DNA of 14,351 bases from positions 1 to 14,351 of the forward strand of contig JBDZWC010000078.1 of the NCBI GenBank assembly GCA_040256005.1, given 5' to 3'. A model generated the notes under the pieces. That model made no database searches. It was given only the letters and a program-made list of their open reading frames with translations, and had not been told where the DNA came from. Each line of letters opens with the position of its first letter. The first letter of the stretch is position 1. Positions 8,220-14,351 of this stretch are shown here, in pieces. A program made the position numbers and the translations under genes. This stretch comes from Deinococcaceae bacterium. Lineage in GTDB: Bacteria; Deinococcota; Deinococci; Deinococcales; Trueperaceae.

Positions 8220-9026
8220 GTGACGGACGCCGACAAGATCGCTGACGAGACGGTGCGCAGCTCACCGGTCCCGGCCGAGGAGGCGGCCGTCGTGATCGAG
8301 GACCTCAGCCTGTGGTACGGCGACTTCAGGGCGCTCTACGACGTCTCCCTGACGGTCCCCCGCAACCAGGTGACGGCGCTGATCGGCGCGTCCGGCTGCG
8401 GTAAGAGCACCCTGCTGCGGTCGATCAACCGGATGAACGACCTCGTAGAGGGGGTCAGGGTCAGCGGGGCCGTGCGGTACGACGGGGTGGAGCTATACGG
8501 GCCGGACGTCGATCCGGTCGAGGTGCGGCGCAGGATCGGCATGGTGTTCCAGAAGCCCAACCCGTTCCCGAAGTCGATCTACGAGAACGTCGCGTTCGGC
8601 CCCAAGCTGACCGGCTTCCGGGGCGACATGGACGCGCTCGTGGAGAGGGCGTTGAGGGGGGCAGCCCTATGGGACGAGGTGTCCGGCAAGCTGCGCGAGT
8701 CGGGCCTCGGGCTCTCCGGCGGCCAGCAGCAGCGCCTGTGCATCGCCAGGGCGTTGGCCTCGGACCCCAGCGTGATCCTCATGGACGAGCCTACCAGCGC
8801 CTTGGACCCGATCGCCACGGACAGGATCGAGCGCCTTATCACCGACCTCAAGAGGGACTACACGGTCCTGATCGTCACCCACAACATGCAACAGGCCGGC
8901 CGCGTAAGCGACCGCACGGCGTTCATGCATCTGGGGCGCCTTATCGAGGAGGGACCCACGGACCTGATCTTCACGAACCCGCGGCAGGAGCTGACCGAGC
9001 GGTACGTCTCCGGCAGGTTCGGATGA
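8220..9026 (+). CDS. pstB: Phosphate ABC transporter ATP-binding protein PstB
   Basis: Motifs [73 protein letters not shown]. Confidence 0.97.
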
Positions 9027-9086: not shown

Positions 9087-9172
9087 GCAAAGAAGTGACC
9101 CCGCGTGGGAGGCGCGGGGTCTTCTCGGAAGAGGATGGGAAGAGGTAATGGGAGGGTTACCTCAGTCCTCAG
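9087..9172 (-). ncRNA. Candidate small regulatory RNA with two CCUCCCA-loop hairpins (~85 nt)
   Basis: Minus strand reads GAGGA-CT-GAGGTAA-[CCCTCCCA]-TTACCTC-TTCCCA-TCCTC-TTCCGAGAA-GACCCCGCG-[CCTCCCA]-CGCGGGGTC-ACTTCTTT. It is preceded by -10 TAGCCT (9184-9179). Ends are approximate. Confidence 0.65.
9088..9125. terminator. Intrinsic terminator, probably bidirectional (pstB on plus, candidate sRNA on minus)
   Basis: 9-bp stem GACCCCGCG (9097-9105) / CGCGGGGTC (9113-9121) with a 7-nt loop, followed by ACTTCTTTG on minus and TTCT on plus. Confidence 0.75.
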
Positions 9173-9178
9173 GTACAT

Positions 9179-9210
9179 AGGCTAGCGGCTGGCCCTTACA
9201 AAGTTCTTAC
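9179..9210 (-). promoter_or_regulatory. Candidate sRNA promoter: -10 TAGCCT plus GTAAG-N6-GTAAG direct repeat (11-bp period) over the -35 region
   Basis: Plus-strand CTTAC at 9195-9199 and 9206-9210 in an AT-rich patch. This geometry is typical of OmpR/PhoB-family and SARP binding sites. Confidence 0.55.
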
Positions 9211-9399: not shown

Positions 9400-9428
9400 G
9401 GTCACCCTTCAGTGAACAGGGGGCCAGC

Positions 9429-11363
9429 GTGGGCAGCACGTCGACGGGCGGGCATGACGTGGAGTCGCGCGGTCGTACCGGTGTAGCGCCGGGCGGGCGG
9501 GCGGGGGCCATGGCGATGATGGACGGCGACTCCCTTGAGTCGGCGAGGGAGGCCGTGGCCGCTCGGTTGCGCCATGGGTCCTGGCGCGATGCCCTGGCCG
9601 CGTGCCGGCACCACGCGCCGGAGCTGGCCACCGAGGTCGTGGACCAGGCCGGGAACAGGGCGTTCAACGAGGGGGACTTCGCGGGTTTGTGGCGGGAGCT
9701 GAGCGCCCTGCCCGAGAGCGTCCAGTGCGAGCCGGCGGTCGCTTACTGGCTGTACGTCACGGCCACGGCGGTCAATAGGCAGGCCGAGGTCATGGGCCTG
9801 GTGTCCACCGTGCTCGGAGGTTCAGCCGCACCGGAGCTGCGTGCCGCGGTCGCCGTGACGAAGCCGGGCGCCGACGCCGGCGCCGAGACGCTCAGGGCGC
9901 TCGAGGCTCACGAGTCCGCGACGACGATCAGGGCCAGGGCCTTCGCGTTGGCGCTCGAGGGTGACCGGCACTCGCCCATCCTGCTGTTCAGGAGGGCCAT
10001 GGCGCTCGCCGAGCACTCGGACGCCAGTCACCTCGTGGTGGCCTGCGCGATCGACGTCGCCAACCAGGAGCTCGCGCTGGGGCACTACAAGAGCGGCCGC
10101 GACTGGGCCAGGTGGGCGCTGGACGAGTACGAGCGCCGCGACCTGCTCGAGGCGTACAGGCGCGAGGTCGCGGCGGCCACGCTGGCTTTCGCCCAGATGC
10201 TCCTCGGTGACCTGCCGGCCGCGCGGGCGGCCCTGGCGCACGTCGCGATCGAGCCCGAGAAGCTCGGCATCCCAACCTACGAGGCCGTCGTGTCCACGTC
10301 CGCCGACCTGAGCCTGCTGGAGGGGCGCTGCGACGAGGCGTTGGGTCTGTTCACGATGTTGAGGCGGGCGTCGCCCCTCACGCAGGTGGCTTCGGCGTCG
10401 CTCGACGTCACCAAGTGCCACCTCGCCATCGGCGACGTAGAGGCCGCCCTGCACTCGGCCGAGTACGCGTTCTCCCTCAGCCGCGGCGCCCCGCGCGCCC
10501 AGGCCGCGATCGGGACGCTGGGGATGGGCATGGCCCTCAGCTACCGCGACCTACCGCGGGCCACCACCCTGCTCGAGACGGCCGCGAGGCAGTTCGAGCA
10601 GACCAACTTCCAGCTGTTCCAGACGCAAGCCGCGATGTGGTTGGCGCTGTGCCACGTCAGGCAGGGGAGGGTGGACGAGGCGGCCAGGGCGCTGGCCCTC
10701 GGCGCTGACGGCCTGCGCGAGCTCTCCGAGACCGGCTGGCGGCTCCTCATGGCGTGCGACCCGCAGTACGCCCAACTGATCGCGCTCTGGCGAGGCGGCG
10801 GGAGCCCGCTCAAGGTCAGGCTGCTCGGCTCACCGTCGGTCGAGTACCGGGCCCGCGAGCTCCCTTTGACCGCGCGGCAGCGCGAGGTACTGGCGATCCT
10901 GTGCGACAGCGAGGCCGGCGTCACGGTGGGGCAGCTGCGCGAGCTGGTCTTCGGCTCGGACGTCCATCCGGGCACGGTCAAGTCGACGGTGTCGCGGCTC
11001 AGGCAGCTGGTGCCCATCTCGGCCGCTCCGTACCGACTGCTGGCGCCGTTCGAGTGCGACTTCAAGCAGGTGCTCGCCTTCATCGCCACCGGCCAGGCTC
11101 ACCGGGCGGTGCAGCAGTACACGGGCCCGTTGCTCCCGGGTTCGTTCGCGCCCGGCGTCGTCGACCTGAGGCTCCACGTCGAGGAGTGCCTGCGGCGAGC
11201 CGTCATGGCGGCCAGCGACCCAGACCTCCTGATCCAGTTCGCTACCGCTCAGGGTGACGACCTGGAGCTGTGGGAATCGGCGCGCGCCAGCCTGGCGCAT
11301 GGCGACTACCGGCTGCCGCTGGTCATCGCGCGCATACGCCGGATACGGGAGGCGTGGCGATAA
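9429..11363 (+). CDS. Putative transcriptional regulator: long TPR-like helical N-terminal region plus C-terminal OmpR/SARP-like winged helix and BTAD-like helical tail
   Basis: C-terminus from ~10809: LKVRLLGSPSV...LTARQREVLAIL...LRELVFG...TVKSTVSRLRQ...PYRL...YTGPLLPGSFAPGVVDLR...DDLELW. The N-terminal ~430 aa are Ala/Leu-rich amphipathic helices. No Walker A motif seen. Start uncertain (GTG 9429, or ATG 9510/9516/9519). Confidence 0.75.
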   Translation: MGSTSTGGHDVESRGRTGVAPGGRAGAMAMMDGDSLESAREAVAARLRHGSWRDALAACRHHAPELATEVVDQAGNRAFNEGDFAGLWRELSALPESVQCEPAVAYWLYVTATAVNRQAEVMGLVSTVLGGSAAPELRAAVAVTKPGADAGAETLRALEAHESATTIRARAFALALEGDRHSPILLFRRAMALAEHSDASHLVVACAIDVANQELALGHYKSGRDWARWALDEYERRDLLEAYRREVAAATLAFAQMLLGDLPAARAALAHVAIEPEKLGIPTYEAVVSTSADLSLLEGRCDEALGLFTMLRRASPLTQVASASLDVTKCHLAIGDVEAALHSAEYAFSLSRGAPRAQAAIGTLGMGMALSYRDLPRATTLLETAARQFEQTNFQLFQTQAAMWLALCHVRQGRVDEAARALALGADGLRELSETGWRLLMACDPQYAQLIALWRGGGSPLKVRLLGSPSVEYRARELPLTARQREVLAILCDSEAGVTVGQLRELVFGSDVHPGTVKSTVSRLRQLVPISAAPYRLLAPFECDFKQVLAFIATGQAHRAVQQYTGPLLPGSFAPGVVDLRLHVEECLRRAVMAASDPDLLIQFATAQGDDLELWESARASLAHGDYRLPLVIARIRRIREAWR

Positions 11364-11540: not shown

Positions 11541-12485
11541 TCAGGTCGTGAACAACGAGCTCACCGAGGTGTGCTGGTGCACGTTGCGGATGGCCTTGGC
11601 CAGCAGCGGCGCCACGCTGAGGACGGTGGCGTTGGTGACGTCCTGGCGCAGCGGTACCGTGTCCGTCACGTAGAGCCCGGTGATGGCCGGATGCGTGAGG
11701 CGCTCCTGGGCCGGCGGCGTGAAGACCGGGTGCGTGGCCGTGACCCTTATGTCCGGCTCGGCTCCCAGTCGGAGCAGCGCCTCTATGCCTTGGCGCATCG
11801 TGCCGGCAGTGCTGATCATGTCGTCGATGATGATGGGGCGCATGCCCTCCACGTCACCGATGACGTGCGTGACCTGCGTGTCGGTGGGGCTGGTGCGCCG
11901 CTTGTAGAGCATGGCGAGCGGCAGGTTCAGGTACTGGGCCAGACGCCTGGCCTCTGTCGCCCTGCCCACGTCCGGTGATACGACGATCGAGCCCTCGAGA
12001 TCGGTCTGCTTGAGGTGGTCGCCGAGTATCGGCAGCGCCGTGAGGTGATCGAACGGCACGTCGAAGAAGCCCTGGATCTGCCCGGCGTGCAGGTCCACCG
12101 AGATGACACGGTCGGCGCCGGCGGTCTCGAGCAGGTTCGCCACCAGCTTGGCGGTGATGGGCTCCCTGGCCTGAACCTTCTTGTCCTGACGTGCGTACCC
12201 GAAGTACGGGATGACGGCGTTGATGCGCCAGGCGGACGCCCGCCTGAGCGCGTCGATGAGGACCAGCAGCTCCATCAGGTTGTGGTTCACGGGCGCTGAG
12301 GTGGACTGGACGATGTAGCAGTCGGCGCCGCGGACCGACTCCTCGATCATGATGCGCGTCTCACCGTCCGGGAACTGGGAGACCGTGCCGCTGGCCAGAG
12401 GTACGCCGAGATGCTTCGCGACCGATGACGCCAGGACCGGCGTCGAAGTGCCACGGAAGAGCTTGAGGTCCTCGCCGATCCTCAC
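11541..12485 (-). CDS. prs: Ribose-phosphate pyrophosphokinase
   Basis: Motifs FPDGET, ESVRGAD, PYFGYARQDKK, DLHAGQIQGFFD, VSPDVG, IIIDDMISTAGT. GTGA overlap with the rny stop. Confidence 0.97.
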   Translation of the reverse strand: MRIGEDLKLFRGTSTPVLASSVAKHLGVPLASGTVSQFPDGETRIMIEESVRGADCYIVQSTSAPVNHNLMELLVLIDALRRASAWRINAVIPYFGYARQDKKVQAREPITAKLVANLLETAGADRVISVDLHAGQIQGFFDVPFDHLTALPILGDHLKQTDLEGSIVVSPDVGRATEARRLAQYLNLPLAMLYKRRTSPTDTQVTHVIGDVEGMRPIIIDDMISTAGTMRQGIEALLRLGAEPDIRVTATHPVFTPPAQERLTHPAITGLYVTDTVPLRQDVTNATVLSVAPLLAKAIRNVHQHTSVSSLFTT

Positions 12486-14152
12486 CGGGCGTACTCTACC
12501 GCCCGCGACTCGCGCACCACGGTCACCTGGACCTGGCCCGGGTACTCCATGTCCTGCTCGATCCGGTTGGCGATGTCACGTGCCAGCAGCACGGCTGAGG
12601 CGTCGTCGACCTTGTCGGGCTGGACGATGATCCGCACCTCGCGTCCGGCCTGGATGGCGTAGGCGTTCTCGACGCCCGGGAAGCTCGTCGCGATGTTCTC
12701 GAGCCCCTCGAGGCGCTTGATGTAGCTCTCGAGTGTCTCGCGTCTGGCGCCCGGACGCGCGGCCGAGATGGCGTCGGCGGCGTTGACGATGATGGGGTAG
12801 AGCGTCTCGGCGCGGTCGAGGTCGTGATGGTTGAGGATCGCGTCGATGACCTCGGGCGGCTCGCCGAAGCGGCGGCCCAGGTTCGCCCCGATCTCGGTGT
12901 GGGTGCCCTCGATCTCACGGTCTATCGACTTGCCGATGTCGTGGAGCAGGCCCGCCCGGCGCGCCATGCTCTCGTCGACGCCGAGCTCGGCCGCGAGGAT
13001 GCCGGACAGGTGCGCCACCTGCACCGAGTGCTTGAGGATGTTCTGCCCGTAGCTGGTGCGGAACTGCATGCGGCCGAGCAGCTGGATCAGGCCCGGCTTG
13101 AGGCCGACGATGTTGGCCTCGAGGGCCGCCTCGTCGCCGCGTTCGCGGATGTAGTTCTGCATGTCGTGCTGCGCCTTGTGCACGACCTCTTCGATACGCG
13201 CCGGGTGGATCCGCCCGTCGGTGACTAGCTCGGAGAGCGCGAGCTTCGCGACCTCGCGCCTGATCGGGTTGAAGGACGAGAGGAGCACCGCTTCGGGGGT
13301 GTCGTCGATGATCAGGTCCACGCCTGTCAGCGCCTCGAACGCCCGGATGTTGCGGCCTTCGCGGCCGATGATGCGGCCCTTCATGGCGTCGTTGGGGATG
13401 GGCACCACCGAGACGCTGATCGCCGCCGAGACCTCGGAAGCGCTGCGCTGGATCGCCTGGGAGAGGATGTCGGTCGCGCGCCTCTTAGACTCGGCATCGG
13501 CCCGCTCGAGCGCAGCCCTCACCCTGACCGCCTTCTCGCGCTCCAGTTCACGCTCGACCCGGTCCAGGACCAACTGAGTGGCCTGCTCGCGCGTGAGCTG
13601 CGCTACCTCGTGCAGCTGGGCCGTCAGCTGGGCCTCGCGGCCCTGCAGCTCGTCCTCACGCGCCTGCATGTCGACCGACCGCTGGTTGAGCCTCTCCTCG
13701 GCCTCGTCCAGCCTCAGCGCGCGCGCGTCCTGTTGCTCGCCGCGTCGGTTGAGTCTGTCCTCCTGCTGTTCGAGCTTCTCGCGGTCGCGCCTGATCTCCT
13801 CGCGCATGTCGCGCAGTTGGGCCAGCTCTCGCTGGCCTTCCTCGCGGCTGCGCTGGATCTCGGCACGCACCGCGGCCCGTTCGCGCTCCAGGTCCTCCTG
13901 CAACCGTTGCCGCAGGCGCTGCTCGTCCTCTTCCCAGCGGCGCCTGGCCTGCTCGATCTCGGCCTGGGCGTCCGACTGGGCTCGTTCGACAGTGCGCCGG
14001 GCCTCGCGCTCGGCCTCCTCGACGCGGGCTCGGTACAGCCTCTCGGCCTCGGCCTTGGCGTCCGTCTCCTGGCGCTGCCTCAGGACCCAGACGGCGGCGG
14101 CGCCGACGGCCAGGCCCACGATGAGCAGGAGTATCCCCAGGGCCGCGCTCAC
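12482..14152 (-). CDS. rny: Ribonuclease Y
   Basis: N-terminal TM anchor, long coiled coil, KH domain (MKGRIIGREGRNIR..DDTPE), HD domain (RTSYGQN..HS..LLHDIGK..ADAISAARPGARRE), C-terminal AIQAGREVR..YPGQVQVTVVRE. Confidence 0.97.
   Translation of the reverse strand: MSAALGILLLIVGLAVGAAAVWVLRQRQETDAKAEAERLYRARVEEAEREARRTVERAQSDAQAEIEQARRRWEEDEQRLRQRLQEDLERERAAVRAEIQRSREEGQRELAQLRDMREEIRRDREKLEQQEDRLNRRGEQQDARALRLDEAEERLNQRSVDMQAREDELQGREAQLTAQLHEVAQLTREQATQLVLDRVERELEREKAVRVRAALERADAESKRRATDILSQAIQRSASEVSAAISVSVVPIPNDAMKGRIIGREGRNIRAFEALTGVDLIIDDTPEAVLLSSFNPIRREVAKLALSELVTDGRIHPARIEEVVHKAQHDMQNYIRERGDEAALEANIVGLKPGLIQLLGRMQFRTSYGQNILKHSVQVAHLSGILAAELGVDESMARRAGLLHDIGKSIDREIEGTHTEIGANLGRRFGEPPEVIDAILNHHDLDRAETLYPIIVNAADAISAARPGARRETLESYIKRLEGLENIATSFPGVENAYAIQAGREVRIIVQPDKVDDASAVLLARDIANRIEQDMEYPGQVQVTVVRESRAVEYAR
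12493..12498 (-). promoter_or_regulatory. Internal -10 TAGAGT inside the 3' end of rny; probable leaderless promoter for prs
   Basis: TAGAGT-7 nt-GTG(12485), the same spacing as at 1382 and 1019. Confidence 0.45.
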
Positions 14153-14351
14153 GCCGGGCCTCCGGCGACCGGCACCGGGCTCGCTGCCCCGGCGCCGATA
14201 GCGTTCATGACCGCTTTCCGGATGTCGTCGACGAGGTCGGGTCTGGTGGTGAGCAGCTCCACCGCCTTCTCCTTACCCTGACCCAAGCGCGTCTCGCCGT
14301 ACGAGAACCACGACCCGGACTTCTGCACCACATCCAGATCAGCCGCCACCT
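14149..14351 (-). CDS. recA: Recombinase RecA, C-terminal end (partial)
   Basis: DVVQKSGSWFSYGETRLGQGKEKA is the RecA C-terminal domain signature. GTGA overlap with the rny start; recA-rny adjacency is well known. Confidence 0.92.
   Translation of the reverse strand, partial: VAADLDVVQKSGSWFSYGETRLGQGKEKAVELLTTRPDLVDDIRKAVMNAIGAGAASPVPVAGGPA

What the first reader, a model, noticed from the sequence alone, without database searches (positions are those of the whole stretch)
9087..9184. Candidate sRNA with twin CCUCCCA anti-Shine-Dalgarno loops
Seen: a self-contained minus-strand unit with -10 TAGCCT, hairpin 1 (7-bp stem GAGGTAA/TTACCTC, loop CCCTCCCA, extendable by GAGGA/TCCTC), extra CU-rich segments (CCTCTTCCCA, CCTCTTCC), and hairpin 2/terminator (9-bp stem, loop CCTCCCA, U-rich tail). 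Two unrelated stems presenting the same 7-nt loop is unlikely to be chance. Established: C-rich loops that pair with ribosome-binding sites are used by alphaproteobacterial cuckoo/CcsR sRNAs (CCUCCUCCC) and S. aureus RNAIII/RsaE (UCCC). Inference: a trans-acting translational repressor, possibly an undescribed Deinococcota family.
Basis: partly seen in the sequence, partly recalled or inferred. Interest (0 to 1): 0.85.

Follow-up and report, generated by a model that had tools for sequence, protein, structure and literature searches.

The report
Trueperaceae C-rich regulatory small RNA family
This is a small non-coding RNA gene, present in several copies across one family of Deinococcus relatives, that probably blocks ribosome entry on messenger RNAs and shares a promoter switch with pilus and c-di-GMP genes; it is predicted from genome comparison only and no transcript was shown.

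Summary
A covariance model finds it in 92 of 121 genomes of the host family (Trueperaceae; 30 of 36 genera), 1-7 copies each, and only weakly elsewhere. All nine terminator pairs covary while the C-rich loops persist. Rfam has no match above threshold, and the cuckoo loop CCUCCUCCC occurs in 0 of 89 copies, so it is not a cuckoo RNA. (1) A GTAAG-N6-GTAAG repeat lies 10-11 nt before the -10 box. This is the geometry of CiaR-driven csRNA promoters, and the same repeat precedes pilT, pilins, c-di-GMP enzymes and c-di-GMP-II riboswitches. (2) The genome holds two more copies. (3) A CAU-plus-pyrimidine linker between the hairpins, held by a short 5' latch helix, is the likely seed. One ABC-importer leader keeps a 16-19-nt complementary site over its ribosome-binding site in 8 of 9 same-genus genomes. 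Best reading: an Hfq-independent trans-acting translation repressor (about 0.72). Transcription, the regulator and the targets are unproven.

The parts
9195..9210 (-). Direct repeat GTAAG-N6-GTAAG (11-bp period), putative activator site in place of a -35 box
   Evidence: Found (up to 1 mismatch) before 59 of 89 aligned copies, with TANNNT 10-11 nt behind it in 48 of those 59. 11 exact copies in the genome against 0.2 expected, 0-3 at other spacings.
9179..9184 (-). -10 box (TANNNT type), 10 nt after the repeat
   Evidence: Sequence; spacing conserved.
9087..9172 (-). Small RNA, about 85 nt; 5' end inferred at 9170-9174
   Evidence: Model R1 match 9171-9087, 93.1 bits. In 30 of 37 copies with repeat, -10 and an NNGGA 5' end, that end starts 6 nt after the -10; here 8 nt.
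9166..9170 (-). 5' latch strand (GAGGA) that pairs with the linker (UCCUC)
   Evidence: MFE fold. At least 3 of the first 5 nt are paired in the MFE fold of 37 of 37 copies examined, with different 5' words meeting matching linker words.
9142..9163 (-). Hairpin 1, 7 bp, loop CCCUCCCA
   Evidence: 86% of cells paired on MAFFT alignment A1, 4 of 7 pairs with double changes; 89% and 6 of 7 on model-fitted A2.
9125..9141 (-). Pyrimidine-rich linker with CAU followed by a C/U run (anti-start codon plus anti-SD orientation); proposed seed
   Evidence: CC-purine-N then 5 or more pyrimidines in 75 of 89 copies; CAT plus 5 or more pyrimidines in 59 of 89. Pairs with the candidate target leader.
9097..9121 (-). 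Hairpin 2 / intrinsic terminator, 9 bp, loop CCUCCCA
   Evidence: 9 of 9 pairs with compensatory changes, 99.9% of cells paired in 89 copies; 97.9% on unfitted A1.
9087..9096 (-). U-rich terminator tail
   Evidence: 4 or more U in 10 nt in 74 of 89 copies, 4 or more A in 3; terminator scan.
8220..9026 (+). pstB, last gene of pstSCAB; convergent neighbour 60 nt from the RNA's 3' end, not part of the unit
   Evidence: Pfam ABC_tran; operon neighbours PBP_like_2 and BPD_transp_1. In G007 the RNA persists without pstB next to it.
9420..11363 (+). TPR-repeat protein with a weak winged-helix signal; divergent neighbour (start uncertain)
   Evidence: Pfam TPR_16 E 4e-4, Trans_reg_C E 0.09; adjacent in all 10 same-genus copies of this subtype.

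Best explanation
An independently transcribed, about 85-nt, Hfq-independent trans-acting sRNA of a multi-copy Trueperaceae family. Shown computationally: the RNA gene, its strand, its structure, its paralogues, its promoter repeat, and the genes that share that repeat. Inferred steps: (1) an unidentified winged-helix activator, probably an OmpR/PhoB-type response regulator, binds the 11-bp repeat in place of a -35 box and turns the RNA on together with type IV pilus and c-di-GMP genes; (2) an exposed CUCCC loop makes first contact with a G-rich ribosome-binding site; (3) the short 5' latch helix opens and the CAU-pyrimidine linker forms the long duplex over the SD and start region; (4) 30S loading is blocked on several mRNAs, one likely example being an ABC-importer solute-binding protein gene. 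The RNA would be the repressive arm of an activator regulon, as csRNAs are for CiaR.
For: Family-wide conservation with full covariation of the terminator and C-rich loops kept. Strand: U tails 74 against A tails 3 of 89; 20 G-U against 0 A-C cells in the terminal helix, on a model-fitted alignment. Copies occur in many unrelated neighbourhoods and in tandem, and the window copy has no same-strand gene behind it. Repeat plus -10 geometry holds in 48 of 59 and equals the 10-nt CiaR-box-to-(-10) spacing used to predict csRNAs (PMC3091779, passages). The repeat precedes pilT, yqeG-pilB, pilins, GGDEF-EAL and HD-GYP-type genes in this genome (15 upstream sites against 0-3 at other spacings). It precedes several of the same genes and c-di-GMP-II riboswitches in other genera. 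The 16S tail of this genome carries the CCUCC anti-SD. No Hfq and no CsrA. Candidate target G000:C205:32965-34392(-): duplex -28.7 to -35.0 kcal/mol at -22..-4 in 8 of 9 same-genus genomes, net -7.9 to -15.0 after opening costs. Orthologues extend the match beyond what selected it. Ungapped identity is 0.71-0.75 over -21..-5 against 0.35-0.42 further upstream.
Against: No transcript shown. Genome-wide, complements of the linker are not more concentrated at start regions than those of shuffled linkers: 96 of the top 150 against 54, 97 and 89; 15 of 220 against a comparable share in 25 shuffles. The top-ranked target has no orthologue in 60 other genomes, and 6 of 119 shuffles gave as good a best hit. 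Enrichment for secreted proteins is modest: 8 of the top 25, 1 of 119 shuffles as high; 18 of the top 100, 23 of 119 as high. The ABC-importer site is absent from all 5 orthologues outside the genus, although at least 4 of those genomes carry the RNA. The gene occurs in only 14 of 121 genomes, so it cannot explain family-wide conservation. In the window copy the linker costs 8.6-10.6 kcal/mol to open. 30 of 89 copies lack the repeat. The regulator was not identified. Gene starts came from a home-made caller.
Confidence: 0.72

Rival explanations
1. A real sRNA that works mainly by binding a protein (for example titrating ribosomal protein S1 or another pyrimidine-binding factor) or by sponging another RNA, not by covering ribosome-binding sites.
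For: Long single-stranded C/U tracts; 22 of 89 copies sit upstream of the S1 gene; no genome-wide start-region enrichment above shuffles.
Against: Most copies lie elsewhere. The conserved words are complements of SD-like and start-codon sequence. One leader keeps a long complementary site in 8 of 9 genomes.
Confidence: 0.12
2. A cis-acting leader/attenuator (for rpsA or the ATPase gene opposite cinA), of which the window copy is a displaced duplicate.
For: 22 of 89 copies precede rpsA and 18 precede one ATPase gene, on the same strand; some rpsA-linked copies have weak U tails.
Against: The window subtype has no downstream same-strand gene, yet the body from hairpin 1 to hairpin 2 is almost identical in 10 genomes while its flanks diverge. 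Copies occur in tandem with separate promoters. Many copies have convergent or unrelated neighbours. No antiterminator appears in the folds.
Confidence: 0.06
3. Only a terminator for the convergent pstSCAB operon, or a repeated extragenic palindrome, with no RNA product.
For: Hairpin 2 lies 70 nt behind the pstB stop and is symmetrical.
Against: The tail is U-rich on the minus strand only. Promoter repeat, -10, latch, hairpin 1 and linker are conserved with it. The unit persists without pstB. Genomes hold 1-7 copies, not dozens.
Confidence: 0.04
4. A plus-strand CsrB/RsmZ-like RNA that presents GGA motifs to CsrA.
For: The plus strand has five GGA words and folds stably (-40.7 kcal/mol).
Against: CsrA found in 0 of 41 family genomes while the control rang in 3 known holders. 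Promoter, U tail and G-U pairs all point to the minus strand.
Confidence: 0.01

Closest known systems
Streptococcal csRNAs (CiaRH-dependent small RNAs)
   Same: Several paralogues per genome. Two stem-loops with an unpaired anti-SD/anti-start (CAU) region between them. Promoter with a 6-bp direct repeat at 11-bp period placed 10 nt before the -10 box (PMC3091779, passages read).
   Different: The repeat is GTAAG-based, not TTTAAG. The loops also carry CUCCC. There is a 5' latch helix over the linker. Different phylum; no csRNA Rfam model matched; the regulator is unknown. Convergence is inferred.
Cuckoo RNAs (ar14 RF02344, CcsR1 RF02791)
   Same: Adjacent hairpins with variable stems showing the same C-rich anti-SD loop; multi-copy; ar14 is the best-placed Rfam hit.
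   Different: Loop CCUCCUCCC in 0 of 89 copies. ar14 scores 20.6 and 21 bits against a gathering score of 58.8. Cuckoo RNAs were found only in alphaproteobacteria among 2,680 genomes, and RSs0680a binds Hfq (PMC4615179, parts 1-2 of 6 read); no Hfq here.
S. aureus RsaE / RNAIII UCCC class; B. subtilis RoxS and FsrA
   Same: Hfq-independent, 5' hairpin plus terminator, several unpaired UCCC words that block the initiation complex; RsaE targets include an ABC-transporter mRNA, oppB (PMC2790875, passages).
   Different: No Rfam match above threshold (FsrA 25.5 bits against 80); different phylum, promoter and length. The likeness is one of mechanism.

Membership tests
Cuckoo (ar14/CcsR) | Loop motif CCUCCUCCC in each hairpin | tested here: not met
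   0 of 89 terminal loops; window loops are CCCUCCCA and CCUCCCA.
Cuckoo (ar14/CcsR) | 2-4 adjacent hairpins with variable stems and C-rich loops | tested here: met
   Two hairpins with covarying stems, though separated by a linker.
Cuckoo (ar14/CcsR) | Rfam score at or above gathering threshold | tested here: not met
   ar14 20.6 and 21 bits against 58.8.
Cuckoo (ar14/CcsR) | Alphaproteobacterial host | tested here: not met
   Named holders are Trueperaceae or other Deinococcota labels in 39 of 57 loci, unnamed in 17, one conflicting label.
csRNA (CiaR-dependent) | TTTAAG-N5-TTTAAG CiaR box | tested here: not met
   Consensus is (T)GTAAGA-N4-(T)GTAAGA.
csRNA (CiaR-dependent) | Direct repeat 10 nt before the -10 box | tested here: met
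   TANNNT at +10 in 27 and +11 in 21 of 59.
csRNA (CiaR-dependent) | Unpaired anti-SD and anti-start (CAU) between two stem-loops | tested here: inconclusive
   CAT plus pyrimidine run in 59 of 89, but partly paired by the 5' latch; median opening cost 4.35 kcal/mol in 82 copies.
csRNA (CiaR-dependent) | Transcription depends on the cognate response regulator | not testable with these tools
   Needs mutants; regulator not identified.
UCCC-motif class (RsaE/RNAIII-like mechanism) | Conserved unpaired UCCC in loops | tested here: met
   Both loops unpaired; CTCCC in 56 of 89 terminal loops, CCCC in 25.
UCCC-motif class (RsaE/RNAIII-like mechanism) | Blocks 30S initiation complex on target mRNAs | not testable with these tools
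   Predicted duplex only.
CsrB/RsmZ | CsrA encoded in the host | tested here: not met
   0 of 41 genomes.

The most novel reading that the evidence does not exclude
Trueperaceae have independently evolved a csRNA-like module: one activator switches on type IV pili, c-di-GMP turnover and a set of paralogous and non-homologous C/U-rich sRNAs (further boxed C/U-loop RNAs were seen outside this family) that shut down nutrient-import and secreted-protein mRNAs. The RNA's own 5' end mimics a start codon and latches the anti-start seed. In many copies it is also a leaderless GUG minigene (30 of 37 start with RUG; 24 of those 30 stop within 5 codons), so ribosome binding could unlatch or stabilise the regulator.
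Probability: 0.2. Interest if true: 0.78.

Novelty: new member of a known kind. Interest (0 to 1): 0.57.

Why it matters
It adds a well-bounded, multi-copy riboregulator family for a Deinococcota lineage in which my searches found no described sRNA. It comes with a testable promoter motif, a predicted regulon (pili and c-di-GMP) and one concrete target site. If confirmed, it is an independent origin of the 'response-regulator box plus anti-initiation-region sRNA' design known from streptococci, in a phylum where many mRNAs are leaderless (60% in D. deserti; PMC4007540, passages), so anti-SD sRNAs could address only the leadered subset.

Tried and rejected
Expression: 13 runs were offered and 4 laid. 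All were assembled contigs, with long contigs running through pstB, the RNA and beyond in RNA-labelled and DNA-like libraries alike, so they say nothing on transcription, strand or ends. Regulator: the OmpR-type gene with the repeat before its start (G000:C29) keeps it in 5 same-genus genomes and one other genus, but was not found in several genera that have the repeat. A second OmpR-type pair (C28) was not found in G021 or G018, which have it. The TPR-winged-helix gene upstream of 17 copies was not found in G017, G027 or G033, which carry 26, 15 and 4 repeats. None is assigned. A site reported for D. radiodurans DrRRA (PMC9195949, passages) does not resemble the repeat; that G000:C190 is the DrRRA orthologue rests on its match to PDB 3q9s plus recall. 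A phosphate (PhoB) link was rejected: no repeat before pstS. The 106-codon minus-strand ORF 9178-8858 starts directly at the -10 box and its ATG is not kept in most relatives. The top duplex hit (C212 lipoprotein) is genome-specific. The LSM profile was the wrong test for Hfq, since its control missed E. coli; it was repeated with PF17209. Viral contigs: 0 matches. Hits outside the family (8 of 108 genomes, 30 bits or less): 3 were inspected and lack the architecture. Paper search was too loose to be informative.

Full report
Setting. The window is contig C18 of G000. The finding lies between pstB (stop at 9026, plus strand) and a divergent TPR-repeat gene. A GTDB-wide pattern scan shows that close relatives of the RNA come from Trueperaceae: of 78 loci, 57 score 53.9 bits or more with my model. 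Of these, 31 are titled Trueperaceae or Truepera, 8 carry other Deinococcota labels, 17 are unnamed and 1 is titled Ferruginibacter. The last has the same upstream gene end as a Trueperaceae locus, so I read it as a label conflict. The other 21 loci score 18.8 bits or less, or not at all.

Observation. The strand folds better than 199 of 200 shuffles (z -3.22), and both loops are open. A single such hairpin is common by chance. A pair within 80 nt appeared in 0 of 36 simulated genomes and once in the real one.

It is a conserved RNA family. BLAST found near-identical copies (E below 1e-30) in 9 of 11 same-genus genomes and shorter matches in other genera. A covariance model built from 26 copies matches 92 of 121 family genomes, in 30 of 36 genera, with 1-7 copies each. 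The genomes that supplied the 26 match by construction, and the tally includes one genome flagged unpublished (G067), on which no other claim rests. In the four other families of the order only 8 of 108 genomes had a hit, all at 30 bits or less. On the unfitted alignment 8 of 9 terminator pairs show double changes and 97.9% of cells pair. On 89 model-aligned copies, chosen to span the score range, all 9 do (99.9%), as do 6 of 7 pairs of hairpin 1. These controls do not correct for relatedness. U-rich tails follow the terminator in 74 of 89 copies; A-rich stretches that would serve the other strand occur in 3. Rfam gives nothing at threshold for the window or for 10 other loci.

Paralogues and neighbourhoods. 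G000 has three copies: this one, one upstream of rpsA (C2:968-1047) and a more divergent one between cinA and an ATPase gene (C241:15398-15493). Among 89 copies, 22 precede rpsA, 18 precede that ATPase gene, and the rest lie in many other places. Two tandem copies, each with its own promoter, occur in G021. The window subtype sits beside the TPR gene in 10 of 12 same-genus genomes and beside pstB in 9 of those 10. This pattern fits a free-standing gene, not a pst terminator or a leader.

Promoter. A GTAAG-N6-GTAAG repeat (9210-9195) precedes 59 of 89 copies; in 48 of the 59 a TANNNT follows after exactly 10 or 11 nt. The repeat is over-represented in the genome (11 exact against 0.2 expected) and in most family genomes against a reversed-pattern control. 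It is also over-represented in one sister genus, slightly in a second family, and not in two others. In G000, 15 upstream regions carry it against 0-3 at other spacings. The genes behind it include pilT, yqeG-pilB, pilin clusters, a GGDEF-EAL protein, two HD-GYP-type proteins, acetate-CoA ligase and an OmpR-type pair. In five other genera the 30 exact sites examined again include pilT (2 genomes), a major pilin (3), HD-GYP-type genes (2) and single receiver domains (2), and c-di-GMP-II riboswitches above Rfam threshold lie behind the repeat in G020, G034 and G000. An 11-bp direct repeat just before the -10 box is typical of OmpR/PhoB-type activators (own knowledge), and the same 10-nt spacing was used to predict CiaR-dependent csRNAs (PMC3091779, passages). 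I could not name the regulator.

Seed and latch. The linker carries CC-purine-N plus a pyrimidine run in 75 and CAT plus that run in 59. That order (CAU 5' of the C/U run) is the one needed to pair with SD followed by a start codon. The first five bases fold back on the linker in 37 of 37 copies examined; opening costs a median 4.35 kcal/mol in 82 copies and 8.6-10.6 in this one.

Targets. With a home-made gene caller (2,919 genes) I ranked start regions by duplex energy with the linker. Genome-wide signals are weak: start-region enrichment does not beat shuffles, secreted proteins are enriched only at the very top (8 of 25; 1 of 119 shuffles as high; 23 of 119 at top 100), and the best hit has no orthologue in 60 genomes. 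The second hit, a family-1 solute-binding protein heading an ABC-importer operon, is more convincing. A 16-19-nt complement covering the SD is kept in 8 of 9 same-genus genomes while the sequence further upstream diverges. Six orthologues extend the match at its 5' side, and two replace a G-U pair by A-U at the cost of the canonical SD. The ninth genome, G010, lacks the site and no copy of this subtype was found in it, but it is 80% complete. The site is absent in all 5 orthologues from other genera. Of two further candidates checked, one kept a similar energy in 4 of 5 orthologues and the other in 1 of 2.

Mechanism. Most likely (0.72) an Hfq-independent trans-acting repressor: activator-driven transcription, loop contact with G-rich ribosome-binding sites, latch opening, linker duplex over SD and start, blocked initiation. 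Existence, strand, structure and promoter motif are shown by comparison; transcription, regulator and repression are inferred. Public RNA data were contigs only and uninformative. A plus-strand CsrA decoy is excluded by the lack of CsrA in 0 of 41 genomes.

Known families. It works like csRNAs and the RsaE/RNAIII UCCC class (PMC2790875, passages) and looks like a cuckoo RNA, but fails the cuckoo tests: motif 0 of 89, ar14 about 21 bits against 58.8, and a published range limited to alphaproteobacteria (PMC4615179, parts 1-2 of 6 and a term search). Not found in print by my searches: 'Trueperaceae' with 'sRNA' gave 0 papers; 'Deinococcus, small RNA, C-rich, Shine-Dalgarno' gave 3 listings unrelated by title and abstract start; regulator searches gave no such motif in listings. 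The library lacks most subscription papers, and I read no supplements, so large motif-discovery tables could hold it. Earlier scan notes had no look-alike.

Verdict. Real, conserved, apparently undescribed; a new member of a known kind, with an unusually complete predicted context. Interest 0.57.

Noticed in passing
L254 (G000:C199, behind the repeat at about 3972, + strand); L351, L356, L337: A different boxed RNA-like element upstream of a thioredoxin-domain gene in four genera: a helix closing a long C/U-rich loop, then a GC-rich hairpin. Not matched by my model; possibly a second sRNA of the same regulon.
   Followed up: partly
L344 (G033) and L331 (G034), just behind the repeat: Boxed, ORF-less hairpin RNAs with C/U-rich loops; L344 ends in a terminator with a long U run, in a genus where the family model finds nothing.
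   Followed up: partly
L354, L355, L335, L256: c-di-GMP-II riboswitches (tandem in L354 and L355) directly behind the GTAAG repeat.
   Followed up: partly
5' ends of boxed copies (e.g. L056, L057, L077); not the window copy: 30 of 37 begin with GUG/AUG, typically 6 nt after the -10 box, and 24 of those 30 reach a stop within 5 codons (TAA 14, TGA 8, TAG 2). This may be a leaderless minigene or a by-product of the hairpin sequence; the window copy starts GAG.
   Followed up: partly
L259:2955-4646, L264:2419-4119, L257:60-503; window 9420-11363: TPR proteins with a C-terminal domain resembling a winged helix lie next to many copies (17 of 89 for the rpsA-linked gene; all 10 of the window subtype for the window gene); no Pfam or NCBIfam regulator family reaches threshold.
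   Followed up: partly
L243:440-461 (G000:C29): The repeat lies 6 nt before the start codon of an OmpR-type response regulator and is kept near the start in 5 same-genus genomes and G023; possibly autoregulation or repression.
   Followed up: partly
L207: Record titled Ferruginibacter carries two tandem family copies and a Trueperaceae-type gene end; probably a mis-binned contig.
   Followed up: partly
window 11541-14349, minus strand: Ordinary gene run: end of a recA-like gene (by inspection), RNase Y, ribose-phosphate pyrophosphokinase.
   Followed up: no
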